The position numbers and the translations under genes were made by a program. From Candidatus Nomurabacteria bacterium RIFCSPHIGHO2_01_FULL_41_71 (GTDB lineage Bacteria > Patescibacteriota > Minisyncoccia > Phycocordibacterales > UBA9973), in NCBI GenBank assembly GCA_001785355.1, contig MFTQ01000021.1, positions 4,033 through 68,032 on the forward strand: 64,000 nt of DNA, read 5' to 3'. Positions 1,899-47,225 of this stretch are shown piece by piece. The notes beneath the pieces were generated by a model. It worked only from the letters and a program-made list of their open reading frames with translations, was not told the DNA's origin and did not search any database. How positions within the stretch are numbered: the stretch's first letter is position 1; each line of letters begins with the position of its first letter.

Positions 1899-1933
1899 TT
1901 TTTACTTGTATATTTGCAACGATATATAGTATA

Positions 1934-3976
1934 ATGAAAACCATGTGGTCAAATATTTTAGATCGAGTATCTTTTTTATCAATATTTTTAGCAATAATTT
2001 TATTACCGATTTTCTTTCTGCCTTTTACCGGGATACCGATTGAAATTTCAAAAGGATTGCTTTTGGTGGTTGGAATTTCTATTTCACTTATTTTCTGGAC
2101 GATATCCAGGTTTTCGGTGGGCAGGGTAAATTTACCCCGTTCCCCGCTTATCTTCTCCGGCGCGGGAATTGTTTTAGCAGTGTTTTTGTCGGCTTTTTTC
2201 TCGGATGCGCCGGAGATGTCTTTTTTTGGCGTTATCTTTGACTTGGGTACATTTTGGTTTATGTTTGCGGCTTTCATGTTGATGCTTATTTCTTCCATGA
2301 TGGTAAAAGATTCCCAAAATGCTCGAATGCTCTTGTTTGGAGTTATTCTTTCTTCTGTCGTGGTGTCGGTCTTTCAGATTTTTAGGTTCTTCATGCCGGA
2401 AATTTTTTCGTTATCGGTTTTTGAAGGAAAAGCTGGCAATCTCGTTGGATCCTTGAACACCTTGGGGCTTTTAGCCGGTTTTTCCGCCCTAGCCTCTTTG
2501 TTTATTATTGAATTTTTTCCTATTACTAAGCGGATAAAATTTATTCTAGGGGCTTTTATTTTGATTTTCTTGTTTTTGGTTGCTTCCGTAAATTATATTC
2601 TTATTTGGGAGCTTCTGGGAATTTTTTCTTTGCTTATTTTTGTCTATAAAATCTCATTTTTTTCCAGGACTGAAGAAGAAGAAAAAAAGTCTTATTTTCC
2701 AGCTTTTTCTTTTGGAGTATTCATAGTATCGCTTTTATTTTTTATTTCCGGGCAGTTTATAGGGAGTTTCTTGCCCCAAAAGCTTGCTCTTTCCAATACG
2801 GAAGTGAGTCCTTCCATAAGCGGGACTTTCGCGATTATGAAAGAATCTCTAAAAGAAAATCCCGTATTCGGCGTTGGACCCAATAAATTCGGAGAAGCTT
2901 GGGCCATACATAAATCTCTACCCATAAACTCTACCATTTTTTGGGATGTTTTTTTTACTTCCGGGTCCGGGATTTTGCCAACCTTCGCTTCTACTACCGG
3001 AGGGCTTGGCATTTTGTCTTGGCTTGTTTTTTTAGGATTTTTCTTTGTTGAAGGAGTGAAGTCACTTTTTGTAACTATAAAGCAAAACATGAATCGCGAA
3101 GCAGGCATTTTCTTTCTATTATCCTTGTATTTGTTTTCGGCTTGCTTCTTTTATTCCGCGGGCTTGGTGATATTCCTGCTAGCTTTTGCTTTTACCGGAG
3201 TATTTATCGGGCTTTTGTCCAATCGTGAAAAGGGAGAATATCAAATATCGTTTTTAGATGATCACAGAAAAAGCTTTTTTTCCATTCTTTCTTTGGTTGT
3301 GATAATGATAGCTTCCGCGACCGTTGCCTTTAAGTATATAGAGCGTTTCGCTTCCGTTCCGCATTTCCGTAAGTCGGTGCAGACTTCTTCCGTAACTGAA
3401 GCGGAAGCTTCCATAGTTAAAGCTTTGTCACTCTACAACAATGACCTATATTTGAGGACTTATGCTCAGATTTTTCTTGTAAAACTGAATTCTCTTTTGA
3501 GCGAGAATCCATCCGGACTTTCTGATGCGCAAAAGGCGGATTTACAGAAAATGTTCGATCAGGCCGTGCTTGGAGCTTCAGGGGCAATTGCATACAATCC
3601 TAAAAATTATCTGAATCATCAATCCTTGGGCAATGTATATAGTGTGGCGGGGACCCTAGGGGTGGCGAATGCTTATCCAAAAGCGATAGAATCTTTTATG
3701 GCCGCTTCTGACTTAAATCCGCTTAATCCGCGCCTCAAACTTGCCATAGCTCAAATAAATCTTTCCAATAAAAATCAAGAAGAAGCGAAAAAATTCGCGA
3801 ATGAAGCTTTATCTTTGAAGCCGGACTATATTGATGCCATATTGATGCTCTCTCAAGTGGCGAGGGCGGGGGGCGACAGCAAATCGGCTCTTTCTTATGC
3901 TGAACAGGCGCTGTCTCTTTCTCCATCAAACCAGGATCTTTTGAAATATGTGGATTCGCTTAAGGCTGGAAACTAA
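1934..3976 (+). CDS. Polytopic membrane protein with C-terminal TPR repeats (O-antigen ligase/Wzy-like family, tentative)
   Basis: About 10 predicted TM helices, then TPR-like repeats in the last ~200 aa. Confidence 0.45.
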   Translation: MKTMWSNILDRVSFLSIFLAIILLPIFFLPFTGIPIEISKGLLLVVGISISLIFWTISRFSVGRVNLPRSPLIFSGAGIVLAVFLSAFFSDAPEMSFFGVIFDLGTFWFMFAAFMLMLISSMMVKDSQNARMLLFGVILSSVVVSVFQIFRFFMPEIFSLSVFEGKAGNLVGSLNTLGLLAGFSALASLFIIEFFPITKRIKFILGAFILIFLFLVASVNYILIWELLGIFSLLIFVYKISFFSRTEEEEKKSYFPAFSFGVFIVSLLFFISGQFIGSFLPQKLALSNTEVSPSISGTFAIMKESLKENPVFGVGPNKFGEAWAIHKSLPINSTIFWDVFFTSGSGILPTFASTTGGLGILSWLVFLGFFFVEGVKSLFVTIKQNMNREAGIFFLLSLYLFSACFFYSAGLVIFLLAFAFTGVFIGLLSNREKGEYQISFLDDHRKSFFSILSLVVIMIASATVAFKYIERFASVPHFRKSVQTSSVTEAEASIVKALSLYNNDLYLRTYAQIFLVKLNSLLSENPSGLSDAQKADLQKMFDQAVLGASGAIAYNPKNYLNHQSLGNVYSVAGTLGVANAYPKAIESFMAASDLNPLNPRLKLAIAQINLSNKNQEEAKKFANEALSLKPDYIDAILMLSQVARAGGDSKSALSYAEQALSLSPSNQDLLKYVDSLKAGN

Positions 3977-3988
3977 AATGATGGTTGA

Positions 3989-5680
3989 ATGGAAAAGATT
4001 TTCAAGATTTTTGGCAAAGAGTACGAAAATATAAATCAAGCTGCTATTCTCCTGGGGGGTTTTGCTCTTCTCTCTCAGATATTGGGACTTCTTCGGGATC
4101 GTTTACTTGCGCATTTTGTCGGTCCTTCCGCTTCGCTTGATATTTATTATGCGGCTTTCAGGATTCCGGATCTTATCTTCATATCTATTGCATCTCTGGC
4201 CTCTATCACCGTCATTATACCGTTCTTGCAGGAAAAAATGTCTAGTCGTTCAGGCGATGCTTCGATGACGGAGGAGGCGCGAAAATTCCTGAATGATATT
4301 TTTTCGGTGTTTTTTTCGGTGATTATTCTGGTATCGATCTTTGTTTTTTTTCTTATGCCCTATCTTTCTTTTTTTATTGCGCCCGGTTTTACTCCGGAGA
4401 ATCAAGCGCGAGTGATAGAGCTTTCCCGCATTATGCTTCTTTCTCCCATTCTTTTGGGATTATCCAATCTTTTTGGCGCTATTACCCAGATGAATCGCAG
4501 ATTTTTTATTTATGCCCTAAGTCCCATTTTTTATAATCTGGGTATAATCGCCGGTATTTTGTTTTTATATTCTATTTTTGGTTTGCGGGGGCTTGCTTTT
4601 GGAGTGAGTTTGGGAGCTCTAATGCATTTTTTAATTCAAGCTTTTGCTTCTTTCAAATTTGGTTTTTTTCCAAAATTTTCAATTTCTATCAATTTTCAAG
4701 ATATCAGAAAGGCGGTTTTTATTTCCCTACCGAGAACATTGGGGCTATCTGCAAACAACATAGCGCTGATTTTCATTGTGGCTATGGCATCTTTTCTCAA
4801 AAGTGGCTCTATTTCGGTTTTTAATTTATCCTTTAATCTTCAGTCCGTTCCTCTCAATATTGTCGGTATATCCTACGCAGTAGCGGCTTTTCCCACCCTG
4901 GTTAAATCTTTTACTGGCGGGAAAAACAATGAATTTAAAGATCATTTAAAGAGGGCGGGCCGGGCTATTGTATTCTGGTCTATTCCTATCACTTTCATCT
5001 TTATCGTTGCGCGAGCGCAGATTGTGCGGGTGATTCTGGGCTCGCCTTCTTTTTCATGGGAGAATACCAGGCTGGTGGCCGCCTCTCTCGCTATTTTTTC
5101 CGTATCTATTCTGGCGCAGGGTATGGTCGCTCTTTTATCTCGGGCTCATTATGCCAAAGGCAATACCAGACGCCCGCTTGTGGTAAATCTGGTGTCGTCG
5201 ACGGTTATGATATTTTTATCTTATATTCTTTTAAGTTTATTCGAGTCTTGGCCGCTTTTCCGGCACTTTATAGAGTCTATTCTCAAGGTATCGGATATTC
5301 CAGGCACCGCAGTCTTAATGCTTCCGCTGGCTTATGCCCTGGGTACTATATTAAATTTCATCATTCATCTCTACTTTGCCAAGAAAGAGTTTATGGATGG
5401 AGAATCTTTCATATCGAAAACTTTCTTTCAGACACTGGGAGCTTCTTTTTTTATAGGAGTAATGGCGTATTTATCTCTGGGTGTTTTTTCCAATATTTTT
5501 GGCACTACCACCTTCTGGGGAATATTTCTTCAAGGGTTTTTCTCCGTTATATTGGGCATTCTTGCCGGAATAATGGTTTTGCGTTTGCTTGGGAATGAAG
5601 AACTGGAAGAGCTTTTCCGGACTTTCCGAACTAAATTCTGGCGCGCCCGTATTTTACCCCCTTCCCAAGAAGGGCTTTAA
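3989..5680 (+). CDS. murJ: Lipid II flippase MurJ/MviN
   Basis: N-terminal LLGGFALLSQILGLLRDRLLAHFVG...YYAAFRIPD signature; 14-TM architecture. Confidence 0.85.
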   Translation: MEKIFKIFGKEYENINQAAILLGGFALLSQILGLLRDRLLAHFVGPSASLDIYYAAFRIPDLIFISIASLASITVIIPFLQEKMSSRSGDASMTEEARKFLNDIFSVFFSVIILVSIFVFFLMPYLSFFIAPGFTPENQARVIELSRIMLLSPILLGLSNLFGAITQMNRRFFIYALSPIFYNLGIIAGILFLYSIFGLRGLAFGVSLGALMHFLIQAFASFKFGFFPKFSISINFQDIRKAVFISLPRTLGLSANNIALIFIVAMASFLKSGSISVFNLSFNLQSVPLNIVGISYAVAAFPTLVKSFTGGKNNEFKDHLKRAGRAIVFWSIPITFIFIVARAQIVRVILGSPSFSWENTRLVAASLAIFSVSILAQGMVALLSRAHYAKGNTRRPLVVNLVSSTVMIFLSYILLSLFESWPLFRHFIESILKVSDIPGTAVLMLPLAYALGTILNFIIHLYFAKKEFMDGESFISKTFFQTLGASFFIGVMAYLSLGVFSNIFGTTTFWGIFLQGFFSVILGILAGIMVLRLLGNEELEELFRTFRTKFWRARILPPSQEGL

Positions 5681-5708
5681 AATTAAGCAAGAATTAAGCA
5701 AGGACCGG

Positions 5709-5737
5709 AATTAAGCAAGGACCGTCCTTGCTTAATT
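5709..5737. repeat. REP palindrome aattaagcaagga-ccg-tccttgcttaatt upstream of RAYT-1, preceded by partial copies (5681-5708)
   Basis: 13-bp arms read directly; inverted copy at 6444-6472 downstream of the gene. Confidence 0.85.
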
Positions 5738-5763
5738 GAAATATACAATATATAATATCATGT

Positions 5764-6438
5764 ATGTTACGCAAGGATCCATTTATCACCGGCGAATATT
5801 ATCATCTTTATAATCGTGGTATAGATAAAAGAGTAATATTCAAATCAAAAAAAGACTACGAGCGATTTATCATGCTTTTATATATTGCGAATACACAAAC
5901 AGAATCTTTTCGTTTGGATAATTTAATAAATCAACAGCATAAAACATTTAACGAAATTCTGGTATTAGATAGGGGTGAATTAATCATTTCTATTGGTGCA
6001 TGGTCTCTCATGACAAATCATTTTCATTTAATAGTAAGACAAGAAATCGATGGAGGAATTACTAAATTTATGAGAAAATTGGGGACAGGATACTCTATGT
6101 TTTTTAATATTAAATACCAAAGAACAGGTGCCTTGTTTGGCGGATTATTCAAATCAAAATTAATTGGAGTTGATGATAATTATATGCGACAATTATTCGG
6201 ATATATTCATATTAATCCCTTGGAAATAAAATTTCCTGATTGGCAAAAGCAAATCAAAAAACCTTTTAGTGAGATGAAAAAATTTCTTAGATTATATAAG
6301 TATTCCAGTTATCCCGATTATATTGAAGAGGATAGAGTAGAAAAAAATATATTAAATGCCAAAAATTTTCCTAAGTATTTTAATAATGCAAAATCCTTTA
6401 AAGATTTTATGGATGAATATTTCATCGAAAATAATTAA
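5764..6438 (+). CDS. IS200-like/REP-associated tyrosine transposase (RAYT) paralog 1
   Basis: GEYYHLYNRG N-terminus, HxH motif NHFHLIV, Y1-transposase fold hallmarks; flanked by cognate REP hairpins. Confidence 0.75.
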   Translation: MLRKDPFITGEYYHLYNRGIDKRVIFKSKKDYERFIMLLYIANTQTESFRLDNLINQQHKTFNEILVLDRGELIISIGAWSLMTNHFHLIVRQEIDGGITKFMRKLGTGYSMFFNIKYQRTGALFGGLFKSKLIGVDDNYMRQLFGYIHINPLEIKFPDWQKQIKKPFSEMKKFLRLYKYSSYPDYIEEDRVEKNILNAKNFPKYFNNAKSFKDFMDEYFIENN

Positions 6439-6443
6439 GCAAA

Positions 6444-6472
6444 AATTAAGCAAGGACGGTCCTTGCTTAATT
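6444..6472. repeat. REP palindrome (same family as 5709-5737) downstream of RAYT-1
   Basis: aattaagcaaggacggtccttgcttaatt. Confidence 0.85.
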
Positions 6473-6540
6473 TAAAGAGGGGCTTTAAAATTGCGATTTT
6501 TATGGTATCATTTAGTTAAGTCCGCCATGCGGGCTGTTTT

Positions 6541-8301
6541 ATGTTTAATTTAAAGGATTCAATTTCATATATATGGCCAATAATCTCAAAATATAAAAGG
6601 TCTTTTTTCTTTATTTATATTTTGTTTATTTCTAGACCACTTTTATCTAATACTATTGTTCCAATTTTCTACAAAAAAATTATAGATTTAGTTGTTACTC
6701 CAGGTGTTGATAAGTCGTTATTAACAAATTCACTTTTTAAATATGTTGCCATGATTGCTGTATCTTTTGCTATGGCTAATATTTTTATGCGCTGGGGGCA
6801 ATTTCTCGTTACTAGATTTCAATCTAGTGTCATGAAAAATTTAATGGATTTAACTTTTTCTAAACTACAAAATCACTCGTACACATTTTTTGCCGACAGT
6901 TTTTCTGGATCATTGGTAAATAAATCAAAAAAGTTTGTTAAATCGTTTGAAACCGTACACGATATCATTCTTGATAATTTTTGGCAACCATTTATTGCCT
7001 TTTTGTCTATTTTTATAGTGTTTTTTATACAATCTTATCCTATTGCACTGGTCTTTTTTGTAGTTTATCTTTTGTATTTCTTAATTATAATTTCTATGTC
7101 TAAAAAAACAATACAAGCGTATATAGAAAAAGCACAGGCCGATTCAAAAGTTACAGGATACATAGCTGATGCCTTGGTAAATATCTTAGCCACTAAAGCA
7201 TCTTCTGCATCTGCAAGAGAAATTGAAAGTTTTAAGATTGTAACAGCCGAAGAAGATTTTTTACGTTTTAGGGCATGGAATATGGCCAATAAACAACAAA
7301 TTGTGCAATCAATTCTTATTGTTTTTGTTCAAGTTTTCTGTGTATTCTTGGCTGTAGAACTTTGGATTTCTGGTAAAATAACAGCCGGTATGTTTTTACT
7401 AATTCAAAGTTATTCTATAACTCTTGGTAATTATTTTTGGGATTTAGGTAGATCAATGATTAGATTTACTGAAGCAACATCAGATATGAAAGAAATGATT
7501 GATATATTTAAAAAAGTTCCAGATGTACTTGATCCAGAAAAACCAGAGATTTTAAAGATAAAAGATGGAAACTTAGAGTTAAAAGATGTTTCCTTTAATT
7601 ATCTTAATGGTACTGAGGTATTAAATAATTTTTCACTTAAAATTAATAAAGGAGAAAAAGTTGGATTGGTGGGTCATTCCGGTTCTGGAAAATCAACTAT
7701 TACTAAACTCTTAATGCGTTTTGTTGATATATCTGAAGGGGAAATTTTAATTGACGGACAAAACATCAAAAATATAACCCAAGATGATTTAAGAAAAAAT
7801 ATCTCATATATTTCCCAGGAACCTATTTTGTTTCATAGAAGTATAAGAGACAATATTGCTTATAGTAAACCAGAAGCAAATGAAGAACAAATTATAGAGT
7901 CCTCTAAGGCGGCTCACGCAGACGAGTTTATTTCAAGATTAATTATGGGGTACAATACTTTTGTTGGTGAAAGAGGAGTTAAACTCTCCGGCGGAGAGAG
8001 ACAGAGGGTGGCTATAGCGAGAGCAATGTTAAAAGATGCACCAATTCTTATTCTTGATGAAGCGACAAGTTCGTTAGATAGTATTAGCGAGTCTTATATT
8101 CAGGACGCCTTTAATGAGTTAATGAAAGGCAAGACAGCAATAGTGATAGCTCATAGATTGTCCACCGTGCAAAAAATGGACAGGATTATAGTGCTTGATA
8201 AGGGGAAGATAGTGGAAGAAGGAACCCATAAAGAGCTTTTGACCAGAAACGGCTTTTATGCGGATTTATGGAATCATCAAACGGGCGGATTTCTGGAATA
8301 A
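6541..8301 (+). CDS. ABC exporter, fused permease + ATP-binding domain (MsbA-like)
   Basis: 6-TM N-terminal half; Walker A GHSGSGKST, signature LSGGERQRVAIARA, Walker B ILILDEATS. Confidence 0.8.
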   Translation: MFNLKDSISYIWPIISKYKRSFFFIYILFISRPLLSNTIVPIFYKKIIDLVVTPGVDKSLLTNSLFKYVAMIAVSFAMANIFMRWGQFLVTRFQSSVMKNLMDLTFSKLQNHSYTFFADSFSGSLVNKSKKFVKSFETVHDIILDNFWQPFIAFLSIFIVFFIQSYPIALVFFVVYLLYFLIIISMSKKTIQAYIEKAQADSKVTGYIADALVNILATKASSASAREIESFKIVTAEEDFLRFRAWNMANKQQIVQSILIVFVQVFCVFLAVELWISGKITAGMFLLIQSYSITLGNYFWDLGRSMIRFTEATSDMKEMIDIFKKVPDVLDPEKPEILKIKDGNLELKDVSFNYLNGTEVLNNFSLKINKGEKVGLVGHSGSGKSTITKLLMRFVDISEGEILIDGQNIKNITQDDLRKNISYISQEPILFHRSIRDNIAYSKPEANEEQIIESSKAAHADEFISRLIMGYNTFVGERGVKLSGGERQRVAIARAMLKDAPILILDEATSSLDSISESYIQDAFNELMKGKTAIVIAHRLSTVQKMDRIIVLDKGKIVEEGTHKELLTRNGFYADLWNHQTGGFLE

Positions 8302-8305
8302 ATAT

Positions 8306-10165
8306 ATGACAGACTTAAAATACATTCGAAATTTTAGTATCATTGCGCATATAGACCACGGCAAGTCTACCTTAGCAGATCGGATGTTGGAAATCACCCA
8401 TACTATTGAAGCGCGAAAAATGCGCGATCAAATACTTGACTCTATGGAACTTGAGCGCGAGCGGGGAATCACCATCAAGATGCAACCTGTTCGCATGGAA
8501 TATACAAACTTAGTACTCGGAGTACTAAGACTTAGTACTCCGAGTACTAAGACTAAATATATCTTAAATCTGATAGATACCCCGGGGCATATTGATTTTT
8601 CTTACGAGGTTTCCAGAGCGCTCAAGGCCGTGGAAGGTTCTATTTTATTGGTGGATTGCACCCAAGGAGTGCAGGCTCAGACTCTTACTACCCTTACCAT
8701 GGCCAGGGAAGGCGGACTTCGTATTATTCCGGTACTTTCTAAGATTGATTCTCCGCTTGCTCGAATAGAGGAAGTGAAAGAAGAAGTTAAACAGCTTTTA
8801 GGTTGTGGTGATGAGGAAGTGCTTTTGGTTTCTGGTAAGACCGGAGAAGGAGTGGAAAATCTGCTTCGTGAAGTAATAAAGCGTGTGCCGACACCTCGAG
8901 AAGATTATTCAGGAGACAATGTTTTACGCGCTCTTGTTTTCGATTTTAAGTATTCTAATCACAAAGGGGTAATAGTATTTGTGCGTATTCTGGATGGGGA
9001 AGTGAAGAAAGGAGATAACCTTCTCTTTTTGGTATCGGGAGAAAAATTTTCTTCTCTTGAAGTCGGAGTATTTACTCCGGAAGAAGTTTCTGCTGAATCA
9101 CTTTCATCCGGAGAAGTGGGATATATAGTAACTGGTATCAAGAGGCCGGGTATTGCTTCTGTCGGAGATACGATTACCATGTCCAAGAATCCTCTGCCCA
9201 CTCTTCCGGGATACATGAAGGCTATGCCGGTAGTATGGGCTTCCGTTTTTCCTGAAGATGCGGATGATTTCATAGAGTTAAAATTATCCTTAGGTAAGCT
9301 GAAGCTGTCTGATTCCGCTTTTTCTTATGAAGAAGAATCAAGCGGTTCACTCGGCCGGGGTTTCCGATGTGGATTTCTCGGGATGCTTCATTTAGAGATA
9401 ATTACCGAGAGGCTAAAACGTGAATTTGGACTAGAGCTTGTTATTACTACCCCCTCCATCACTTATGAAGTGGTAAAAAAGTCCTTTATAGGACAAGCAG
9501 GCAAAAGGGAGAAAATTTATTCCCCATACTTTTTCCCGGATGATGGCAGTGTTGAATCCGTATATGAACCATGGGTAAAAGCGCAAATAATCAGCCCCGC
9601 CGGATATTTGGGCGGTATTATGCAGCTTTTGTTCGAGCATGAAGCGGAAGTGGGCGAGACGCATAATTTTGGAGATAACAGATCGTCTATCTTGGTGGAA
9701 ATGCCGCTTCGGGAATTAATGCGCAATTTTTTCGACGAATTAAAAAGTATTTCCTCCGGTTATGCATCTATTTCTTATAAGCTTGGAGAGATGCGGAAGG
9801 CGGATGTGACCAGACTGGATATTCTGGTGGCTGACGAAGTGGTACCGGCATTTTCCAGGGTTGTGTCGAAAAAAAGAGTGGAAGAGGAAGCGGAGAAGGC
9901 AGTGGAGAAATTATATGGCCTTCTTCCTCGACAGATGTTTACTCTGAAGATTCAGGGAAGGGCTCTGGGGCGAATTATTTCTTCCCGCACTATTTCCGGT
10001 ATGAAGAAGGATGTAACCGCGCACATGTATGGAGGCGATATCACTCGTAAGATGAAACTTAGAGAAAAGCAAAAAAAAGGCAAAAAGAAAATGAAAGAAC
10101 GTGGGCGAGTAAATATTCCCCAAGATGTGTTTCTTAAAATGATGCGGTCGGGCAGAATTAACTAA
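8306..10165 (+). CDS. lepA: Elongation factor 4 (LepA)
   Basis: NFSIIAHIDHGKSTLADR G1 motif, DTPGHIDF, LepA C-terminal domain. Start moved to MTDLKYIRNF. Confidence 0.9.
   Translation: MTDLKYIRNFSIIAHIDHGKSTLADRMLEITHTIEARKMRDQILDSMELERERGITIKMQPVRMEYTNLVLGVLRLSTPSTKTKYILNLIDTPGHIDFSYEVSRALKAVEGSILLVDCTQGVQAQTLTTLTMAREGGLRIIPVLSKIDSPLARIEEVKEEVKQLLGCGDEEVLLVSGKTGEGVENLLREVIKRVPTPREDYSGDNVLRALVFDFKYSNHKGVIVFVRILDGEVKKGDNLLFLVSGEKFSSLEVGVFTPEEVSAESLSSGEVGYIVTGIKRPGIASVGDTITMSKNPLPTLPGYMKAMPVVWASVFPEDADDFIELKLSLGKLKLSDSAFSYEEESSGSLGRGFRCGFLGMLHLEIITERLKREFGLELVITTPSITYEVVKKSFIGQAGKREKIYSPYFFPDDGSVESVYEPWVKAQIISPAGYLGGIMQLLFEHEAEVGETHNFGDNRSSILVEMPLRELMRNFFDELKSISSGYASISYKLGEMRKADVTRLDILVADEVVPAFSRVVSKKRVEEEAEKAVEKLYGLLPRQMFTLKIQGRALGRIISSRTISGMKKDVTAHMYGGDITRKMKLREKQKKGKKKMKERGRVNIPQDVFLKMMRSGRIN
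8509..8551. repeat. 43-bp palindrome (two 21-bp AGTACT-containing units that are reverse complements of each other) inserted in-frame in lepA
   Basis: cttagtactcggagtactaag-a-cttagtactccgagtactaag. Adds ~14 aa (VLGVLRLSTPSTKT) between G1 and DTPGH. Confidence 0.85.
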
Positions 10166-34858: not shown

Positions 34859-34960
34859 GGCTACACAAGACCGCGACAATTCCTTTCGGAACTGCCCTGC
34901 ACCCTTTCGGGCACAGACCACGCGAGTAGGCGGCTTGTGTAGCCGTTTTTACCCGCGTGG
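34859..34960 (+). ncRNA. Candidate structured RNA / cis-regulatory leader: GC-rich nested and alternative hairpins in an AT-rich intergenic region (strand not established)
   Basis: 11-bp stem ggctacacaag...cttgtgtagcc enclosing two UUCG-type hairpins. Competing ccacgcg...cgcgtgg stem followed by T-rich run; a second cgcgtggttttt copy at 34814. Confidence 0.25.
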
Positions 34961-35158
34961 ATTTATTTTCACCATGCCATTTTACCGGTTTAGGTGTTGT
35001 AATTTCATAGTAGCTCTTTTTTGACCTAAAAACAACACAACTTGCATACTAAATTTGGTATGCTACAATTAAAGTAATTGAATATGGAATGATAGATCGG
35101 CCACATGGTTTAATTGCAAGTTTTGCAGTTAAGTCGGCCGTTTTTTTATTTAATATAC

Positions 35159-35608: not shown

Positions 35609-35680
35609 CTAGAACAATATGAAAAAGATTTTTACAAAAGAATTAGTTCGGCCACAAGGACCATGACCCTCCGAAGCCCG

Positions 35681-35705
35681 CAAGACGGGCTTCGGGAATC
35701 TAATA
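35681..35705. repeat. REP-like hairpin ccgaagcccg-CAAGA-cgggcttcgg upstream of recombinase 2
   Basis: 10-bp perfect stem, CAAGA loop identical to the loop of the REP family around RAYT-2. Confidence 0.7.
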
Positions 35706-37583: not shown

Positions 37584-37593
37584 ACGACAGGGC
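37522..37593 (-). tRNA. tRNA-Glu (anticodon TTC), no CCA
   Basis: Minus-strand fold: acceptor GGCCCTG/CAGGGTC (one GT pair), anticodon stem ACGGG/TCCGT with loop TTTTCAA, T-arm CGGGG-TTCGACT-CCCCG. Confidence 0.75.
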
Positions 37594-37654
37594 CATGGCG
37601 GTATAGTAGCTCATTTTTGAAAAATTCGCAAAAAATGCTATAATCCGTCCGCGT

Positions 37655-40713: not shown

Positions 40714-40797
40714 ATTTTCTTGATAAAATTAATCCGATTGGTATGTCGGGCTTGTATATGGGCATACTACCACTAGTCCGAAAAAAAGCAAACCCCA

Positions 40798-40818
40798 CTT
40801 GGAGGCAAGACCTCCAAG
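40798..40818. repeat. REP hairpin cttggagg-CAAGA-cctccaag (family cognate to RAYT-2), plus adjacent half-copy
   Basis: Copies also at 41272-41293 (inside RAYT-2 ORF) and 41496-41516. Confidence 0.85.
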
Positions 40819-40835
40819 TTCCCTCCAAGTTCGAA

Positions 40836-41480
40836 TTAATCAAATTCAAAGTTTTTGACCTCTTCCTTTCTATTACATGTAGTTTTCCAAGTTTCTAGTG
40901 CAAATTTCTCGTATTCTTTTTTGGATTTGAATTGGCCAAGAATCATAGATTTTTCACAAAAATTGATATTACTAGATTGGGTATATTCTATCCAACTTGA
41001 CATGTTTAACGATTTTTTAATTACCCCATTTTTGTCATAGTTGTTTAAATTTATATAAGCGCCAACTTGAAGTAAATACTCATTTGAATTTATGTGTTTA
41101 CTTTTAAATTTTCCCTGAAAGAGTGAACCCGATCTCTTATTTCTTTCGTTAAAATACATAGTGTAACCAGTTCCAAGTCGTTGCATAAATTTTTCCACTC
41201 CTTTTTCCACAAGGGGAGTGAGAAGAAAGTGATAATGATTAGGATTCAAACAGTAAGTTACAAATCTTACCAACTTGGAGGTCTTGCCTCCAAGTTGCTT
41301 TTCTTTTACAAAACTATTCTCATACAAACTACCAATGGGATTTTTAGTATTAAATTCTTTCATACTTTGAAAAAATCTTCCCAAATCTTTTTTATCGGAA
41401 AATATATTTCTTTTATCTACGCCCCTATTATAAATATGATAATACTCTCCTGGCAGGAAGGCCATTTTTCTCATAGACAT
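40836..41480 (-). CDS. IS200-like/RAYT-type tyrosine transposase paralog 2, inserted between ftsA and ftsZ
   Basis: GEYYHIYNRG, HYHFLLTP HxH motif. One REP copy inside the ORF encodes KQLGGKTSKLV in-frame. Confidence 0.7.
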   Translation of the reverse strand: MSMRKMAFLPGEYYHIYNRGVDKRNIFSDKKDLGRFFQSMKEFNTKNPIGSLYENSFVKEKQLGGKTSKLVRFVTYCLNPNHYHFLLTPLVEKGVEKFMQRLGTGYTMYFNERNKRSGSLFQGKFKSKHINSNEYLLQVGAYINLNNYDKNGVIKKSLNMSSWIEYTQSSNINFCEKSMILGQFKSKKEYEKFALETWKTTCNRKEEVKNFEFD

Positions 41481-41495
41481 ACCTAAATTATAGCA

Positions 41496-41516
41496 CTTGG
41501 AGGCAAGACCTCCAAG
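41496..41516. repeat. REP hairpin (RAYT-2 family) upstream of RAYT-2
   Basis: cttggaggcaagacctccaag. Confidence 0.85.
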
Positions 41517-41520
41517 TGGA

Positions 41521-46082: not shown

Positions 46083-46141
46083 AATGTGTATTATAACAAA
46101 CTGTGCCTTTTGAGTTATCCACAGGCAAGACTTGCCAGAGC

Positions 46142-46163
46142 TTGCCAAAGCAAGGCTTTGGCA
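46142..46163. repeat. REP hairpin ttgccaaag-CAAGG-ctttggcaa (family cognate to RAYT-3)
   Basis: Copies at 46453-46478 (inside the RAYT-3 ORF) and 46881-46913 (14-bp arms). Confidence 0.85.
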
Positions 46164-46177
46164 GTAAACATGAGTGT

Positions 46178-46873
46178 ATGTCTATTCGAAAAATTCCATT
46201 TGTCCAGAGGGAGTTTTACCATATTTTTAGCAGGGGTAATAGTAAACAAGATATATTTTTAGATGATAAAGACAGGGAGCGTTTTACTCAGTTGCTGTAT
46301 CTTTGTAACTCTACAAAGAATGTGAATTACAGGGAAAATATTGTTAGGACTAATATAATCGCATGGGAGTTTGATAGGGGAGAAACAATTATTGCAATAG
46401 GCGCATGGGTTTTGATGTCTAATCATTTTCATCTCTATGTAACCCCAAAAAAGTTGCCAAAGCAAGGCTTTGGCAACTTTGAGAATAGCCTTACGGCATT
46501 CATGCATAAACTTCTTACTTCATATTCAAAATATTTTAATAAAAAATACAATAGAACAGGTAGTTTGTTTGAAAGTAAATTCAAATCTGTTCACATCAAG
46601 AGTGATCCTCAGGCGAAATATAATTTTTCATATATTCATTTGAATCCGATAAAATTAATTGACCGTAAATGGCGTGAGAATGGAATTAAGGATTTTAAAA
46701 AAGCTAAAAAGTTTTTGAAAGACTATAAATGGTCAAGTTATTTGGATTATAAAGGTGTCATTCGTCCGGAAAATAAGATTTTAGACAGAAAAAATTTTCT
46801 GGATTATTTTCAAAATATAAAGGATTTTGATTCTGAAATTCTTGAATGGCTTAAATTTGGGGAAGAAGAATAA
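46178..46873 (+). CDS. IS200-like/RAYT-type tyrosine transposase paralog 3
   Basis: REFYHIFSRG, SNHFHLYVTP. Internal REP encodes KKLPKQGFGNFE in-frame directly after the HxH motif. Start moved to MSIRK. Confidence 0.7.
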   Translation: MSIRKIPFVQREFYHIFSRGNSKQDIFLDDKDRERFTQLLYLCNSTKNVNYRENIVRTNIIAWEFDRGETIIAIGAWVLMSNHFHLYVTPKKLPKQGFGNFENSLTAFMHKLLTSYSKYFNKKYNRTGSLFESKFKSVHIKSDPQAKYNFSYIHLNPIKLIDRKWRENGIKDFKKAKKFLKDYKWSSYLDYKGVIRPENKILDRKNFLDYFQNIKDFDSEILEWLKFGEEE

Positions 46874-46880
46874 GGAATTA

Positions 46881-46913
46881 CCAAATTGCCAAAGCAAGGC
46901 TTTGGCAATTTGG
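46881..46913. repeat. REP hairpin (RAYT-3 family), extended 14-bp arms
   Basis: ccaaattgccaaag-caagg-ctttggcaatttgg. Confidence 0.85.
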
Positions 46914-46914
46914 T

Positions 46915-47225
46915 AAAAAAGACAAATAAATATGCCTCGAAAGTCGAAGACTTCGAGGCGCTTTTGGGCGATTGGAATCAATCGCCCGATTTGTACCGTG
47001 GGCCGGAAACTCTTTGCCTCGCCCGCGTCAAGAACGGGGCAAAAAGACCTTTCGCCGGACCTTGCACTCCGGCTCCCCCGGCTCCACGGTATTTTCGATA
47101 TTAACACAGATTTTTTCTTGATTAAAAAGTTATCCACACCCTTCGTTTGCAAGGGTTTCACGCCGTGGTTTATAATGCGTATCAAGTGGGAAAAAGTGGG
47201 AAAAATGGGGATAAGTAATTTTTAG
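46915..47225. other. GC-rich hairpin-dense non-coding region upstream of mraZ (candidate structured RNA or leader)
   Basis: Perfect 8-bp hairpins gcctcgaa...ttcgaggc and ggcgattg-gaat-caatcgcc; GC content far above the local average; gtgggaaaaa direct repeat. Confidence 0.2.

What the first reader, a model, noticed from the sequence alone, without database searches (positions are those of the whole stretch)
5681..6472. Three RAYT/IS200-like transposase paralogs, each with its own REP hairpin family, with REP copies inserted in-frame inside the transposase genes
Three paralogs: RAYT-1 (5764-6438), RAYT-2 (40836-41480) and RAYT-3 (46178-46873). Each is flanked on both sides by a private hairpin:
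- aattaagcaagga-ccg-tccttgcttaatt (RAYT-1);
- cttggagg-CAAGA-cctccaag (RAYT-2);
- ttgccaaag-CAAGG-ctttggcaa (RAYT-3).
For RAYT-2 and RAYT-3 a third copy lies inside the ORF, read in-frame (KQLGGKTSKLV; KKLPKQGFGNFE). These copies are at different positions relative to the HxH motif, so they are independent insertions. Three hairpin families share a CAAGR loop or GCAAGG element, possibly the recognition/cleavage determinant. This is a compact example of transposase/REP co-evolution with a REP invading its own transposase.
Basis: partly seen in the sequence, partly recalled or inferred. Interest (0 to 1): 0.7.

Follow-up and report, generated by a model that had tools for sequence, protein, structure and literature searches.

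The report
RAYT genes carrying their own palindromes
Three diverged single-strand-DNA "tyrosine transposase" genes in a candidate-phyla-radiation bacterium are each bracketed by a private perfect DNA palindrome, and two also carry it in frame; across about 170 related genes all copies at a locus change together, a known kind of arrangement seen here in a new lineage.

Summary
The window holds three Y1/HUH (RAYT-like) paralogues, each flanked by a private perfect palindrome. RAYT-2 and RAYT-3 each carry a third, in-frame copy. No other copies occur in the 64 kb.

In about 170 related Paceibacterota genes the in-ORF palindrome sits at fixed, clade-specific loop sites: before the HUH strands, just after them, or after the catalytic Tyr. 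In 134 of 147 cases it has the same stem as the flank copies of its own locus, against 3.9% for other loci. Orthologues show all copies switching tip sequence together, so the set evolves in concert.

The upstream copy abuts a -10 box of a probably leaderless gene. For RAYT-2 the downstream copy precedes a T-run.

In-frame REPs inside tnpAREP genes were already reported (Quentin et al. 2018, subclass 2.4). Multiple RAYTs with private REPs are also known. New here are the CPR lineage, proteins whose motifs fit the reportedly REP-less subclass 2.1, several in-ORF sites, and measured concerted evolution.

Unexpectedly, at the conserved ftsA–RAYT-2–ftsZ site, seven different cargo genes are each bracketed by two cognate palindromes. 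This hints at hairpin-mediated gene insertion.

Verdict: new variant of a known kind.

The parts
5672..5684 (+). Left copy of a 13-nt direct repeat GGGCTTTAAAATT. It contains the murJ stop codon and borders the RAYT-1 unit.
   Evidence: exact copies only at 5672-5684 and 6480-6492; flanking repeats of 10 nt or more are rare (4 of 92 units; 0.4% in control).
5681..5708 (+). Two orphan left-arm copies of the RAYT-1 palindrome: aattaagcaag, then aattaagcaaggaccgg.
   Evidence: The same orphan-arm arrangement is kept in orthologue L176, which sits in a different genomic context.
5709..5737 (.). RAYT-1 upstream perfect palindrome, 13-bp stem, loop CCG.
5751..5756 (+). TATAAT -10-like box 7 nt before the RAYT-1 ATG, suggesting a leaderless or near-leaderless transcript.
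   Evidence: Read. Family-wide enrichment: 114 of 167 RAYT-like genes against 301 of 1451 control ORFs.
5764..6438 (+). RAYT-1, a Y1/HUH protein of 224 aa (NHFH aa 85, YIHIN aa 147). It has no in-ORF palindrome.
   Evidence: The clade is very uniform at 222-225 aa.
6433..6443 (+). Orphan left arm (aattaagcaaa) overlapping the RAYT-1 stop codon.
6444..6472 (.). RAYT-1 downstream palindrome, loop CGG (inverted relative to the upstream copy).
6480..6492 (+). Right copy of the 13-nt direct repeat GGGCTTTAAAATT.
40781..40796 (-). On the gene strand this reads tggggtttgcttttttt directly after the downstream palindrome. It is terminator-like and is followed by the ftsZ promoter region.
   Evidence: The segment is conserved after the distal or only palindrome in eight orthologous loci.
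40797..40819 (.). RAYT-2 downstream palindrome: acttggagg-CAAGA-cctccaagt.
40821..40831 (-). Orphan arm (ccctccaagtt on the + strand) between the RAYT-2 stop codon and the downstream palindrome. It is a possible scar of cargo loss.
   Evidence: The scar reading is inference.
40836..41480 (-). RAYT-2, a Y1/HUH protein of 214 aa (NHYH aa 81, LFQ aa 120-122 within the SGSLFQ match that starts at aa 117, YINLN aa 142). It lies between ftsA and ftsZ.
   Evidence: Orthologues sit at the same ftsA-ftsZ site in 16 further loci or gene maps from other assemblies.
41271..41297 (.). In-ORF palindrome of RAYT-2 (11-bp stem), read as QLGGKTSKL (aa 62-70). It lies in the low-confidence loop before the strand pair that carries HUH.
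41487..41492 (-). TATAAT -10 box (gene strand) 6 nt before the RAYT-2 ATG. It is preceded by TGc supplied by the foot of the palindrome, giving an extended -10.
   Evidence: Read; family pattern.
41494..41518 (.). RAYT-2 upstream palindrome (cacttggagg-CAAGA-cctccaagtg on the + strand).
46131..46140 (+). Degenerate orphan left arm (cttgccagag) 5' of the RAYT-3 upstream palindrome.
   Evidence: Read.
46142..46164 (.). RAYT-3 upstream palindrome (perfect part 46143-46163). Homology with orthologue L164 starts exactly here.
46178..46873 (+). RAYT-3, a Y1/HUH protein of 231 aa (NHFH aa 82, YIHLN aa 152). A longer ORF from GTG 46103 reads the upstream palindrome in frame but is probably not the real start.
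46450..46480 (.). In-ORF palindrome of RAYT-3 (14-bp stem, loop AAG), read as KKLPKQGFGNF (aa 91-101). It lies in the loop between the HUH strand (E83-90) and the next helix (H99-123).
46878..46916 (.). RAYT-3 downstream palindrome. The stem is 18 bp, of which only the inner ~10 bp are shared with the other two copies.

Best explanation
These are three resident, REPtron/TIRtron-like units of a large Paceibacterota family of Y1/HUH single-strand-DNA endonuclease-transposase homologues (class 2 TnpAY1, RAYT/TIRYT type). Each gene has its own perfect DNA palindrome, which I infer to be the cognate hairpin substrate of the encoded enzyme.

Shown:
- One copy sits directly upstream of a -10 box that lies 5-8 nt before the start codon, so the gene is probably leaderless and this copy is not transcribed from its own promoter.
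- One copy sits just after the stop codon. At the RAYT-2 locus and its orthologues a T-run follows it, which looks like a terminator.
- In two clades, one or two further copies sit in frame in surface loops of the protein: before the HUH strand pair, right after it, or after the catalytic-Tyr helix.
- All copies at a locus keep the same stem while stems differ widely between loci. Orthologues at the same chromosomal site have switched the tip (innermost base pair plus loop) in all copies together. The set therefore evolves in concert.
- Pairing is strictly Watson-Crick and loop orientation is free.

Inferred:
- The in-ORF copies began as old insertions of the cognate palindrome into insertion-tolerant loops, at least one per site and clade. 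They have since been kept identical to the flank copies.
- Homogenisation works by two processes. Within a palindrome, template switching gives self-correction. Between neighbouring copies, exchange occurs, most plausibly through the enzyme's own hairpin-directed cleavage and rejoining acting in cis.
- The same activity seeds the few distant copies, including in-frame ones in housekeeping genes.
- The same activity may underlie insertion or loss of neighbouring genes between two cognate palindromes.
For: Identity of the proteins:
- HUH and Tyr motifs are present.
- Pfam and NCBIfam give weak matches.
- The top 28 Foldseek PDB hits are all Y1 transposases or putative transposases, probability 0.87-1.00.

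In-ORF sites are clade-wide:
- Homologue peptides at the sites read as translated palindromes with compensatory residue pairs, such as LPK..FGK against LRK..FRK and LGG..SKL against LRG..SQL.
- Perfect palindromes are present at the DNA level in about 50 of 62 R3-type loci and about 50 of 80 R2-type loci.
- Site counts are 52 (after the HUH strand), 43 (before it) and 40+12 (after the Tyr).
- Many R2-clade proteins carry the same peptide twice.

Co-variation:
- 134 of 147 in-ORF palindromes match an own-locus flank copy, against 3.9% in the control.
- There are 80 distinct inner arms among loci.
- On 106 distinct in-ORF copies, 455 cells show a change on both sides. One-sided changes and G-U pairs are almost absent: the next two stem positions beyond the seven required by selection show 2 and 1 G-U pairs.

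Concerted change in orthologues:
- Window ttgccaaagcAAGgctttggc against L164 ttgccaaagtCGGactttggc, at all three positions.
- R2 orthologues show three tip types (CAAGA, AAGAA, gcAAGgc), each uniform within its locus.
- R1 orthologue L178 has aagga changed to aagaa in all three copies.

Other points:
- In-ORF sites fall in loops or low-pLDDT segments.
- A -10-like box ends 5-8 nt before the ATG in 68% of these genes against 21% of control ORFs.
- A T-run follows the downstream palindrome at the RAYT-2 locus and its orthologues.
- Copies are about 180-fold enriched at the gene.
- Prior literature shows that RAYT genes sit among their cognate REPs and that in-frame REPs occur in tnpAREP genes (PMC6006769).
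Against: - No biochemical evidence links these proteins to these palindromes. The link rests on co-location, co-variation and analogy with E. coli TnpAREP and IS608 TnpA.
- The palindromes lack the GT[AG]G foot of canonical REPs and are few per genome (about 1 per 60 kb away from the gene). A 'mobile REP population' is not demonstrated.
- Loop orientation among the upstream, in-ORF and downstream copies is close to random. This does not fit a strand-specific LE/RE mechanism of the IS200/IS605 kind.
- Homogenisation could be entirely host-driven, through template switching at palindromes or short-repeat conversion.
- In the R3 clade the palindrome sits in three different reading phases (35/13/4). 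In-situ conversion alone therefore cannot explain everything, and some re-insertion or indel turnover is needed.
- The profile search against PDB sequences found nothing, and the NCBIfam score is far below the RAYT cut-off.
Confidence: 0.6

Rival explanations
1. One reading: ordinary dispersed REPs that have recently and independently jumped into the RAYT-2 and RAYT-3 genes of this genome.
For: - The two in-ORF copies are at different positions relative to HUH.
- The R3 copy is a 9-aa insertion relative to RAYT-1.
- In the R3 clade the reading phase and length of the insert vary, so some turnover does occur.
Against: - The same two sites are occupied in 43 and 52 related genes from different assemblies.
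- Orthologues at the same chromosomal positions have them.
- In the R2 clade the phase is invariant: 43 of 43 and 39 of 40.
- There are no dispersed copies in the 64-kb window to jump from.
Confidence: 0.08
2. Active IS200/IS605-type insertion sequences. The flanking hairpins are the LE/RE ends used for peel-and-paste transposition of the whole unit, and the in-ORF copies are incidental.
For: - The proteins have the Y1 HUH fold.
- Hairpins lie at both ends of a ~0.8-kb unit.
- RAYT-1-type units with nearly identical palindromes, and even the same orphan arms, lie in three different genomic contexts (window, L176, L178).
- A 13-nt direct repeat flanks the RAYT-1 unit. Three other units have 10-18-nt repeats.
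Against: - No near-identical gene copies were found. The window paralogues are 34-43% identical, and the only locus among the first 80 with a second gene (L053) has two copies only 51-57% identical to RAYT-3.
- RAYT-2 orthologues stay at one fixed site (ftsA-ftsZ) in all 16 further loci or gene maps examined.
- The Tyr motif is Y---NP (class 2), not the Y---Q of IS200 (PMC6006769).
- Both ends carry the same perfect palindrome in either orientation, rather than distinct imperfect LE/RE hairpins on one strand.
- IS200/IS605 elements make no target duplication (established knowledge).
Confidence: 0.12
3. The palindromes act as RNA structures (terminators, mRNA stabilisers, translational brakes or protein-binding RNA hairpins) and are conserved for that reason.
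For: - At the RAYT-2 locus and its orthologues the downstream copy is followed by a T-run.
- In-ORF copies are necessarily transcribed.
- REPs are known to stabilise mRNA 3' ends (PMC3733652).
Against: - Pairing is strictly Watson-Crick with almost no G-U pairs. The next two stem positions beyond the seven selected for show 2 and 1 G-U pairs in 106 sequences.
- The loop flips freely between the two strands.
- The upstream copy lies before the -10 box and so outside the gene's own transcript.
- The same palindromes bracket neighbouring genes on the other strand.
- A secondary terminator role for the downstream copy is not excluded.
Confidence: 0.1
4. Peptide-level selection: the segment encoded by the palindrome is a functional protein motif (for example QLGxxxxKL, present twice) and DNA palindromy is a side effect.
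For: - R2-clade proteins carry the same peptide at two sites in the same reading phase.
- The outer stem ACTTGG/CCAAGT, read as L-G...K-L, is conserved in that clade.
Against: - The peptides are hypervariable in sequence and length.
- In the R3 clade the same palindrome type is read in all three phases.
- Identical sequences occur in non-coding flanks and around cargo genes.
- The segments fall in low-confidence loops.
- A coding sequence has no reason to be a perfect 19-39-nt palindrome.
Confidence: 0.05
5. Host-only palindrome dynamics. Perfect palindromes are kept and homogenised by replication template switching and short-repeat conversion. The Y1 protein has another cellular role and is associated with them only by history.
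For: - Each copy extends its palindrome beyond the shared core with different sequence. In the window, the in-ORF copy reads aaag|core|cttt and the downstream copy reads ttaccaaa|core|tttggtaa.
- Loop flipping is frequent.
- The window has 37 perfect hairpins with stems of 8 bp or more, against about 8 expected. Many belong to families with no RAYT in view.
Against: - This does not explain why each gene has a private family concentrated about 180-fold at its own locus.
- It does not explain why paralogues in one genome keep distinct families.
- Conversion between 20-nt repeats 200-400 nt apart without an enzyme is expected to be rare (inference).
Confidence: 0.15

Closest known systems
TnpAY1 subclass 2.4 (Bertels RAYT group 4) with REPs inserted in frame inside tnpAREP (Quentin, Siguier, Chandler, Fichant 2018, PMC6006769)
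   Same: - Cognate REP copies flank the gene and also lie inside it without breaking the frame.
- The main site is between strand beta3 (HuH) and helix alphaC, with a further small insertion at the end of alphaB.
- The insert is variable in length and sequence and modelled as peripheral. This matches the RAYT-3 site and roughly the RAYT-2 site.
   Different: - Subclass 2.4 motifs are NH[IFV]H / WQ / YIxNNP, with a median length of 194 aa and no tail domain. Its REPs carry a GT[AG]G foot or 'double foot', and it is found in Cyanobacteria and Bacteroidetes.
- The window proteins have LF[QEG] instead of WQ, YIHLNP/YIHINP/YINLNN, an SS-containing tail and 214-231 aa. Their palindromes are perfect and have no GTAG foot.
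- No CPR genomes were in that study.
- Locus-by-locus concerted evolution, the post-Tyr site and cargo bracketing are not mentioned in the sections of that paper that I read.
TnpAY1 subclass 2.1 / TIRYT 'TIRtrons' (Di Nocera et al. 2013, PMC3733652; Quentin et al. 2018)
   Same: - The motif pattern NH[YF]H, FQ, Y[IV]HLNP, an SS tail motif and ~238 aa fits the window proteins best.
- TIRYT genes are flanked by inverted repeats, some of them self-complementary, with low-copy repeat families.
   Different: - Subclass 2.1 is reported to have no REP-like sequences nearby and carries HTH/DnaA_C-like C-terminal domains.
- Here the flanks are short perfect palindromes, copies lie inside the ORF, and no such Pfam domain is detected.
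- Assignment is by motif inspection only. The authors' HMMs were not run.
E. coli REPtron: TnpAREP (RayT/YafM, PDB 4ER8) with REP/BIME
   Same: - Y1 HUH fold.
- A low-copy gene embedded in its own palindromic repeats, one private repeat family per paralogue (PMC6006769).
   Different: - NCBIfam REP_Tyr_transpos scores 24-37 bits against a cut-off of 80, and the profile search against PDB sequences finds nothing.
- E. coli REPs are imperfect, GTAG-tagged and present in hundreds of copies.
- Here the palindromes are perfect, untagged and occur about once per 60 kb outside the locus.
IS200/IS605 TnpA elements (IS608, ISDra2)
   Same: - Best structural neighbours.
- Hairpins near both ends of a ~0.8-kb single-gene unit.
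   Different: - Class 1 has the Y---Q motif, is multi-copy and near-identical, has distinct imperfect LE/RE hairpins on one strand, and makes no target duplication.
- None of these features is seen here.
Rickettsia palindromic elements (RPE) and REPs inside ORFs (cited in PMC3733652)
   Same: Palindromic repeats are inserted in frame into functional genes at permissive sites. The window's lepA (8509-8551) and L164's trxB show the same thing.
   Different: RPEs are 100-150 bp and are not known to sit inside a cognate transposase gene or to co-vary with flank copies.
Integron gene cassettes (attC hairpins recombined as single strands) — analogy only
   Same: At a fixed chromosomal platform next to a recombinase-type gene, different single genes are each bounded by copies of a hairpin-forming site.
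   Different: The enzyme class differs (HUH/Y1, not IntI tyrosine recombinase). There are no attI/Pc features, only one cargo gene per side was seen, and no recombination has been demonstrated.

Membership tests
Y1 HUH endonuclease/transposase superfamily (TnpAY1) | HUH motif on a beta strand plus a single catalytic Tyr on a following helix | tested here: met
   NHFH/NHYH/NHFH and YIHIN/YINLN/YIHLN are present in all three. In the models the HUH lies on strand E83-90 (R3) or E82-89 (R2).
Y1 HUH endonuclease/transposase superfamily (TnpAY1) | Fold similarity to solved Y1 transposases | tested here: met
   The top 28 Foldseek PDB hits are all ISDra2, IS200, TnpAREP (4ER8), IS608 or other (putative) IS200-family transposases, probability 0.87-1.00. 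E-values are only 2e-3 or weaker and TM-scores on the target are 0.41-0.57. The model pLDDT is 73.
Y1 HUH endonuclease/transposase superfamily (TnpAY1) | Pfam PF01797 Y1_Tnp at or above the gathering score (23 bits) | tested here: inconclusive
   R2 31.2 bits (passes), R1 22.3 bits (just below), R3 no match. Many homologues carry a precomputed PF01797 hit.
Class 2 TnpAY1 (TnpAREP/RAYT-like) as opposed to class 1 (IS200) | Tyr motif Y---NP rather than Y---Q; low copy number with diverged intragenomic copies | tested here: met
   YIHLNP and YIHINP fit; R2 has YINLNN. The paralogues are 34-43% identical. Criteria are from PMC6006769.
Canonical RAYT (NCBIfam REP_Tyr_transpos NF047646 equivalog) | Score of at least 80 bits against the curated model | tested here: not met
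   24.1, 29.3 and 36.9 bits.
Canonical RAYT / REPtron | Gene flanked by its cognate palindromic repeats | tested here: met
   Met in the window. Among 173 related genes, at least 142 have two or more own-locus copies of one palindrome within 150 nt of the gene.
Canonical RAYT / REPtron | REPs carry a 5' GT[AG]G foot | tested here: not met
   The feet are aatt (R1), (c)ac/aac...gtg/gtt (R2) and tt[gc]cc (R3). No GTAG is present.
Canonical RAYT / REPtron | The cognate repeat is abundant and dispersed through the genome | tested here: inconclusive
   There are zero extra copies in the 64-kb window. In 1.69 Mb of flanks of related loci there are 28 copies, about 1 per 60 kb. No complete genome could be censused.
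TnpAY1 subclass 2.4 (in-ORF REP subclass) | Motifs NH[IFV]H, WQ, YIxNNP; ~194 aa; no tail domain | tested here: not met
   The window proteins have LFG/LFQ/LFE instead of WQ, YIHINP/YINLNN/YIHLNP, 214-231 aa and an SS-containing tail. This is motif inspection only; the subclass HMMs were not available.
TnpAY1 subclass 2.4 (in-ORF REP subclass) | Cognate REP inserted in frame between HuH and Tyr (beta3:alphaC) | tested here: met
   Met for RAYT-3 at 46450-46480 and for 52 relatives. The RAYT-2 site is different (before HUH).
TnpAY1 subclass 2.1 / TIRYT | Motifs NH[YF]H, FQ (or W[EQ]), Y[IV]HLNP, SS tail motif, ~238 aa | tested here: inconclusive
   NHFH/NHYH fit. FQ is present only in R2 (FE in R3, FG in R1). 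YIHLNP is present only in R3. SSY/SSW is present in all three. The expected HTH/DnaA_C-like tail is not detected by Pfam.
TnpAY1 subclass 2.1 / TIRYT | No REP-like sequences nearby; flanked by terminal inverted repeats | tested here: inconclusive
   The flanks are short perfect palindromes, which are trivially also inverted repeats of each other. This differs from the published description.
IS200/IS605 insertion sequence | Several near-identical copies per genome; distinct LE/RE hairpins on one strand | tested here: not met
   No near-identical gene copies were found. The same palindrome lies at both ends in either orientation. RAYT-2 is fixed at one site in all 16 further loci or gene maps examined.
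Integron (analogy for the cargo observation) | IntI tyrosine recombinase, attI, Pc promoter, attC-bounded cassettes | tested here: not met
   The neighbouring enzyme is Y1/HUH, not IntI. The only shared trait is single genes bounded by hairpin-forming sites.

The most novel reading that the evidence does not exclude
The cognate palindromes next to these Y1/HUH genes may be recombination sites at which foreign genes are inserted and lost. A RAYT-type enzyme plus its hairpin would then work as a small gene-capture platform: an HUH-based, single-strand analogue of an integron, or a REPIN with a gene as spacer.

Basis:
- At the conserved ftsA–RAYT-2–ftsZ site, seven different cargo genes for which DNA was held are each bracketed by exactly two cognate palindromes: PRK-family kinase, DUF6899, semialdehyde dehydrogenase, Exo_endo_phos, and ORFs of 203, 167 and 199 aa.
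- Two more cargo genes, a methyltransferase and a 193-aa ORF, appear in gene maps that came without DNA.
- Sides without cargo have a single palindrome.
- Adjacent conserved intergenic regions have none.
- The window's own downstream palindrome looks like a proximal/distal hybrid with an orphan arm beside it.
- A similar case occurs at a RAYT-1-type gene (L178).
Probability: 0.2. Interest if true: 0.85.

Novelty: new variant of a known kind. Interest (0 to 1): 0.55.

Why it matters
RAYT/REP systems are a long-standing puzzle. It is unclear how the repeats are copied, why each enzyme keeps a private repeat, and what the host gains.

The CPR family described here is large: 970 to 5314 homologues per query among 5.8 billion proteins. 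It is compact and unusually legible:
- The repeats are perfect palindromes, few in number, and sit at defined functional positions (promoter edge, terminator, protein loops).
- Orthologous loci show the whole set changing together.

This gives a clean natural experiment on enzyme/hairpin co-evolution and on concerted evolution of very short repeats. It also supplies ready-made cognate and non-cognate substrate pairs for biochemistry.

The result extends in-ORF cognate repeats to a lineage, and apparently a subclass, in which no repeats had been reported.

The cargo-bracketing pattern, if it reflects mechanism, would tie RAYT-type enzymes to gene flux in streamlined CPR genomes.

Tried and rejected
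- **Shared CAAGR/GCAAGG determinant.** Rejected. Loops and tips are diverse across the family.
- **Conserved synteny for RAYT-3-type genes.** Mostly absent. Only L003 and L164-166 are syntenic with the window. Several unrelated units sit right after murJ.
- **Target-site duplications as a general signature.** Only 4 of 92 units have flanking direct repeats of 10 nt or more, the window's RAYT-1 among them. This is not a family rule.
- **Orphan half-arms on a consistent side of the flank palindromes.** They are present in roughly 10-30% of flanks, with no clear side preference.
- **Loop orientation as a clue to strand specificity.** The split between same and inverted is close to random, except upstream against in-ORF copies in the R2 clade (36 inverted, 12 same). 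That may reflect codon constraints.
- **Sequence-profile link to solved structures.** None found at E of 1 or less.
- **A fourth paralogue at 54219-54290** (weak tblastn hit, E 0.065). It lies inside another ORF on the other strand and was dismissed.
- **Literature on RAYTs in CPR/Patescibacteria.** None of the 12 top-ranked papers that hold CPR terms also mentions 'REP-associated tyrosine'. No paper in the library holds TnpAREP, in-frame and palindrom- together.
- **Empty-site comparison for RAYT-2.** L164 has ftsZ-ftsA without the gene, but its intergenic region holds other hairpins, so no clean empty site was obtained.
- **Whole-genome census.** Not possible.


Full report
**1. What is in the window**

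They are paralogues at 34-43% identity. Each has an HUH motif (NHFH, NHYH, NHFH) and a downstream Tyr motif (YIHIN, YINLN, YIHLN).

Library support is weak but points one way:
- Pfam Y1_Tnp gives 31.2 bits for RAYT-2 (cut-off 23), 22.3 bits for RAYT-1 and nothing for RAYT-3.
- NCBIfam REP_Tyr_transpos gives 24-37 bits against a cut-off of 80.
- A profile of RAYT-2 relatives finds no PDB sequence.
- An AlphaFold model of RAYT-3 (pLDDT 73) has solved Y1 HUH transposases or putative transposases as all of its top 28 Foldseek neighbours, including ISDra2, IS200, E. coli TnpAREP 4ER8 and IS608. Probability is 0.87-1.00 and E is about 2e-3 at best.

The host is a Paceibacterota-type CPR bacterium, judged from the source names of the homologues.

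**2. The palindromes**

Each gene is bracketed by a private perfect palindrome, and none of the three patterns is expected by chance (0.00 matches in shuffles).

| Gene | Upstream / downstream copies | In-ORF copy |
|---|---|---|
| RAYT-1 | 5709-5737 (loop CCG) and 6444-6472 (loop CGG) | none |
| RAYT-2 | 41496-41516 and 40798-40818 | 41274-41294, opposite orientation |
| RAYT-3 | 46142-46164 and 46886-46908 | 46454-46476 |

The in-ORF copies read QLGGKTSKL (RAYT-2 aa 62-70) and KKLPKQGFGNF (RAYT-3 aa 91-101). No other copy of any family occurs in the 64 kb.

**3. The in-ORF copies are clade-wide features, not local accidents**

In 120 homologues of RAYT-3, the segment just after the HUH strand is hypervariable. 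It reads like translated palindromes with compensatory residue pairs, for example LPKSDFGK, LRKSDFRK, PRKQGFRK, EARLPS. In RAYT-2 homologues, the segment before the HUH strands reads LGGxxSKL, LRGxxSQL or LGSxxSKL.

I fetched 80 genome loci for the RAYT-3 clade and 80 metagenome loci for the RAYT-2 clade.
- About 50 of the 62 closest RAYT-3-type loci have a perfect palindrome 18-40 nt after the Asn codon of NHFH. Stems are 7-14 bp and loops are mostly 3 nt.
- The more distant, RAYT-1-like loci have none.
- About 50 of 80 RAYT-2-type loci have one about 180 nt into the gene.
- Roughly half of the RAYT-2-type loci have a second one at about 450-480 nt, after the catalytic Tyr.

Those R2-clade proteins carry the same palindrome-encoded peptide twice, for example PQLGCGAPKLV and HQLGCGAPKLM in L143.

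In the models all three sites lie in loops or low-confidence segments:
- RAYT-3 site: between strand E83-90 and helix H99-123.
- RAYT-2 site: just before strand E71-79.
- Post-Tyr site: after helix H133-144.

**4. Co-variation and concerted evolution**

Stems differ widely between loci, with 80 distinct inner arms, but are uniform within a locus.
- Of 147 in-ORF perfect palindromes, 134 share the inner 8 nt of the arm with a flank palindrome of the same locus. When compared with flanks of other loci of the same clade the figure is 3.9%.
- On 106 distinct in-ORF copies aligned on the loop, every one of the 12 stem pairs shows changes on both sides, 455 cells in all.
- The next two stem positions beyond the seven required by my selection show only 2 and 1 G-U pairs in 106 sequences.

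This is the signature of a DNA palindrome rather than an RNA helix. The inner seven pairs were a selection criterion, so only the outer pairs and the diversity of pair types carry weight.

Orthologues give the clearest picture:
- L164 is syntenic with the window (tRNA synthetase – RAYT – mraZ, 76% nucleotide identity over the gene). It has ttgccaaagtCGGactttggc at all three positions where the window has ttgccaaagcAAGgctttggc.
- RAYT-2 orthologues at the ftsA-ftsZ site show three tip types (CAAGA, AAGAA, gcAAGgc), each uniform within its locus.
- A RAYT-1 orthologue (L178) has aagga changed to aagaa in all three of its copies.
- Intermediate states are rare. L054 and L087 differ by one compensated pair between in-ORF and flank copies.

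Loop orientation among the copies is almost always 'same' or 'inverted', in roughly equal shares, and rarely different. Individual copies extend their palindrome beyond the shared core with private sequence. The window's in-ORF copy reads aaag|core|cttt and its downstream copy reads ttaccaaa|core|tttggtaa. This fits self-perfecting by template switching, which is an inference.

The two clades differ in reading phase. In the R2 clade the phase of the palindrome is invariant (43 of 43 and 39 of 40). In the R3 clade it varies (35/13/4). In-situ homogenisation therefore dominates, but some re-insertion or indel turnover occurs.

**5. Position relative to expression signals**

A -10-like hexamer ends 5-8 nt before the ATG in 114 of 167 of these genes, against 301 of 1451 control ORFs. 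In the window the hexamer is TATAAT at 5751-5756 for RAYT-1 and at 41487-41492 (gene strand) for RAYT-2. The RAYT-2 box is preceded by TGc supplied by the foot of the palindrome.

The genes are therefore probably leaderless, and the upstream palindrome sits at the promoter's upstream edge, outside the transcript. At the RAYT-2 locus and its orthologues the downstream palindrome is followed by gtttgcttttttt and then the ftsZ promoter region. This suggests a secondary terminator role.

**6. Mobility and copy number**

Away from the gene, cognate copies are rare: 28 in 1.69 Mb of flanks, about 1 per 60 kb, against 3-5 in about 1 kb at the gene. Some distant copies are inverted doublets and some are in frame in housekeeping genes, such as trxB of L164.

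RAYT-2 orthologues (68-85% identical) sit just downstream of ftsA and upstream of ftsZ in all 16 further loci or gene maps examined; where no cargo intervenes the gene starts about 40 nt after the ftsA stop. The syntenic relative L164 lacks the gene. They behave as vertically inherited residents with occasional loss.

RAYT-1-type units behave differently. Nearly the same palindrome, and even the same orphan half-arms, lie in three different contexts (window after murJ; L176; L178). The window's unit is bordered by a 13-nt direct repeat that includes the murJ stop codon (5672-5684 and 6480-6492). Such repeats are rare overall, at 4 of 92 units.

**7. An unplanned finding: cargo genes between cognate palindromes**

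At the conserved ftsA–RAYT-2–ftsZ site, related genomes carry different single genes on one side of the RAYT gene or the other.

| Locus | Cargo |
|---|---|
| L167/168 | PRK-family kinase |
| L169/170 | DUF6899 |
| L171/173 | semialdehyde dehydrogenase |
| L174 | Exo_endo_phos |
| L081 | 203-aa ORF |
| L085 | 167-aa ORF |
| L086 | 199-aa ORF |
| two gene maps without DNA | a methyltransferase and a 193-aa ORF |

- In all seven cargo types with DNA, the cargo is bracketed by exactly two cognate palindromes.
- Sides without cargo have one palindrome: both sides in the window, L084 and L175, and the downstream side in L086.
- The neighbouring conserved intergenic regions have none.
- The conserved ftsZ-proximal sequence always follows the distal palindrome. 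The insertion is therefore 'cargo plus one palindrome'.
- The window's single downstream palindrome has the left foot typical of proximal copies (aac) and the right foot typical of distal copies (gtg), with an orphan arm next to it. This is what a deletion or recombination between two copies would leave (inference).
- About 20 further 'palindrome – ORF – palindrome' intervals lie next to other family members, with cargo in both orientations.

Cargo loss by recombination between direct repeats is ordinary. Cargo gain at the palindrome is the interesting part, and it is not demonstrated.

**8. Comparison with what is known**

Several RAYTs per genome, each with a private REP family, is established (PMC6006769). 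So is the in-frame insertion of cognate REPs inside tnpAREP genes. Quentin et al. 2018 describe it as a unique feature of TnpAY1 subclass 2.4, mostly between beta3 (HuH) and alphaC, with a small insertion at the end of alphaB. REPs and Rickettsia RPEs inside other ORFs are also known (PMC3733652).

What differs here:
- The lineage is CPR/Patescibacteria. It is absent from that study. None of the 12 top-ranked papers holding CPR terms also mentions 'REP-associated tyrosine'.
- The proteins' motifs (NH[FY]H, LF[QEG], YIHLNP-like, SS tail, 214-231 aa) fit subclass 2.1/TIRYT better than 2.4. Subclass 2.1 is reported to have no REP-like sequences. This is motif inspection only.
- The repeats are short perfect palindromes without a GTAG foot and at low copy number.
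- There are three distinct in-ORF sites, including a doubled peptide.
- Locus-by-locus concerted evolution is measured here.
- Cargo genes are bracketed by cognate palindromes.

**9. Mechanism: what is shown and what is inferred**

Shown:
- The architecture.
- Its conservation across two clades.
- Strict Watson-Crick palindromy.
- Within-locus identity with between-locus diversity.
- Concerted change in orthologues.
- Placement of in-ORF copies in protein loops.
- Promoter and terminator adjacency.
- Enrichment at the gene.

Inferred:
- The palindrome is the enzyme's cognate single-strand hairpin substrate, by analogy with TnpAREP and IS608 TnpA.
- The in-ORF copies began as insertions into tolerant loops and are passengers at the protein level.
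- Homogenisation combines palindrome self-correction with exchange between neighbouring copies. That exchange is either catalysed by the enzyme acting in cis or is host-driven.

I put 0.6 on the overall model. Within it I put about 0.7 on the cognate-substrate step and about 0.4 on enzyme-driven homogenisation. The rivals are weighed in their own section: recent independent insertions, an active IS200-like element, RNA-level function, peptide-level selection, and host-only dynamics.

**10. Verdict**

Its headline interpretation is already in the literature for another subclass, and one of its inferences (independent recent insertions, shared CAAGR determinant) is wrong. It is best filed as a new variant of a known kind, with moderate interest. 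The cargo-bracketing pattern is the lead most worth following.

Noticed in passing
L081, L085, L086, L167-L171, L173, L174 (ftsA–RAYT-2–ftsZ loci); window 40797-40831: At one conserved chromosomal site, seven different cargo genes are each bracketed by two cognate palindromes, while sides without cargo have one. The window's downstream palindrome looks like a proximal/distal hybrid with an orphan arm beside it.
   Followed up: partly
window 8509-8551 (inside lepA, ORF 8258-10165): A 43-nt compound palindrome (cttagtactCGGagtactaag-a-cttagtactCCGagtactaag, a REPIN-like inverted doublet) is read in frame. It encodes much of an ~11-aa insertion in the LepA G domain, judged against E. coli LepA recalled from memory. 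No cognate RAYT is in the window.
   Followed up: partly
L164 4057-4100 (inside trxB-like ORF 3402-4364): An inverted doublet of the locus's RAYT-3-type palindrome (gccaaagtCGG/CCGactttggc) is read in frame in a variable loop of thioredoxin-reductase-like protein. It lies 5.6 kb from the RAYT gene. The window orthologue has a hairpin-free segment of similar length.
   Followed up: partly
window 5672-5684 and 6480-6492: An exact 13-nt direct repeat GGGCTTTAAAATT, including the murJ stop codon, borders the whole RAYT-1 unit like a target duplication. Three other family members have 10-18-nt repeats. IS200/IS605 elements make none.
   Followed up: partly
window 5681-5708, 6433-6443, 40821-40831, 46131-46140: Orphan half-arms of the cognate palindrome lie next to a flank copy at all three genes. 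The RAYT-1 pattern is conserved in orthologue L176 in a different genomic context.
   Followed up: partly
window 1-64000: The window has 37 perfect hairpins with stems of 8 bp or more, against about 8 expected from a Markov model. They include two-copy families with flipped loops: gggacgcgc-GAA/TTC at 10827 and 12576, and ctctgtgc-AAA/TTT at 12708 and 15033.
   Followed up: no
window 634-677, 1273-1293, 1339-1359, 1588-1606 (ORF 42-1898): An ORF combining a NUDIX domain with the C-terminal half of a class I aminoacyl-tRNA synthetase holds several perfect palindromes in frame. One has a 20-bp stem. One (tgtcaaggaCCGtccttgaca) has the same tip as the RAYT-1 palindrome.
   Followed up: no
window 10702-12318 (-) with tRNA 10717-10787; window 35823-37583 (+) with tRNA 37523-37594: Two large serine recombinases (Resolvase, Recombinase, and in the first also a Zn_ribbon_recom domain) each overlap or abut a tRNA gene. 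This suggests integrated elements. A Fic/DOC gene lies at 15885-16934.
   Followed up: no
window 45372-46141 compared with L164 9650-9654: Relative to the syntenic relative L164, the window has about 770 nt inserted between the tRNA-synthetase gene and the RAYT-3 upstream palindrome. The insert holds an XRE-type HTH gene (45690-46148, -) and an apparent convergent small ORF, with a ccttgtc-TCG-gacaagg hairpin downstream of the XRE gene. L164 instead has a 141-aa gene inserted after the RAYT gene.
   Followed up: partly
window 46917-47232: The RAYT-3–mraZ spacer holds further hairpins. One is an imperfect hairpin with a RAYT-3-like tip (gcctcgaaagtc-gaa-gacttcgaggc, ~46925-46952). Another is gggcgattg-GAAT-caatcgccc (46966-46987).
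   Followed up: no
window 35671-35695 and 42770-42802: There are intergenic perfect palindromes. ccgaagcccg-CAAGA-cgggcttcgg has the same loop as the RAYT-2 family. A 15-bp-stem palindrome lies upstream of ftsA.
   Followed up: no
window 46103-46177: A GTG-started ORF extension reads the RAYT-3 upstream palindrome in the same frame and phase as the in-ORF copy (LPKQGFGS against LPKQGFGN). Public gene calls (P0001, 256 aa) use this start. Homologues begin at MSIRK (46178).
   Followed up: partly
window 34875-34996 (-): An Rfam LOOT RNA match scores 66.4 bits against a gathering score of 46.4.
   Followed up: no
L018, L045, L049 and window 5681-6492: The position immediately downstream of murJ is occupied by RAYT-type units of different clades and with different palindromes in different genomes. 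It appears to be a recurrent insertion site.
   Followed up: no
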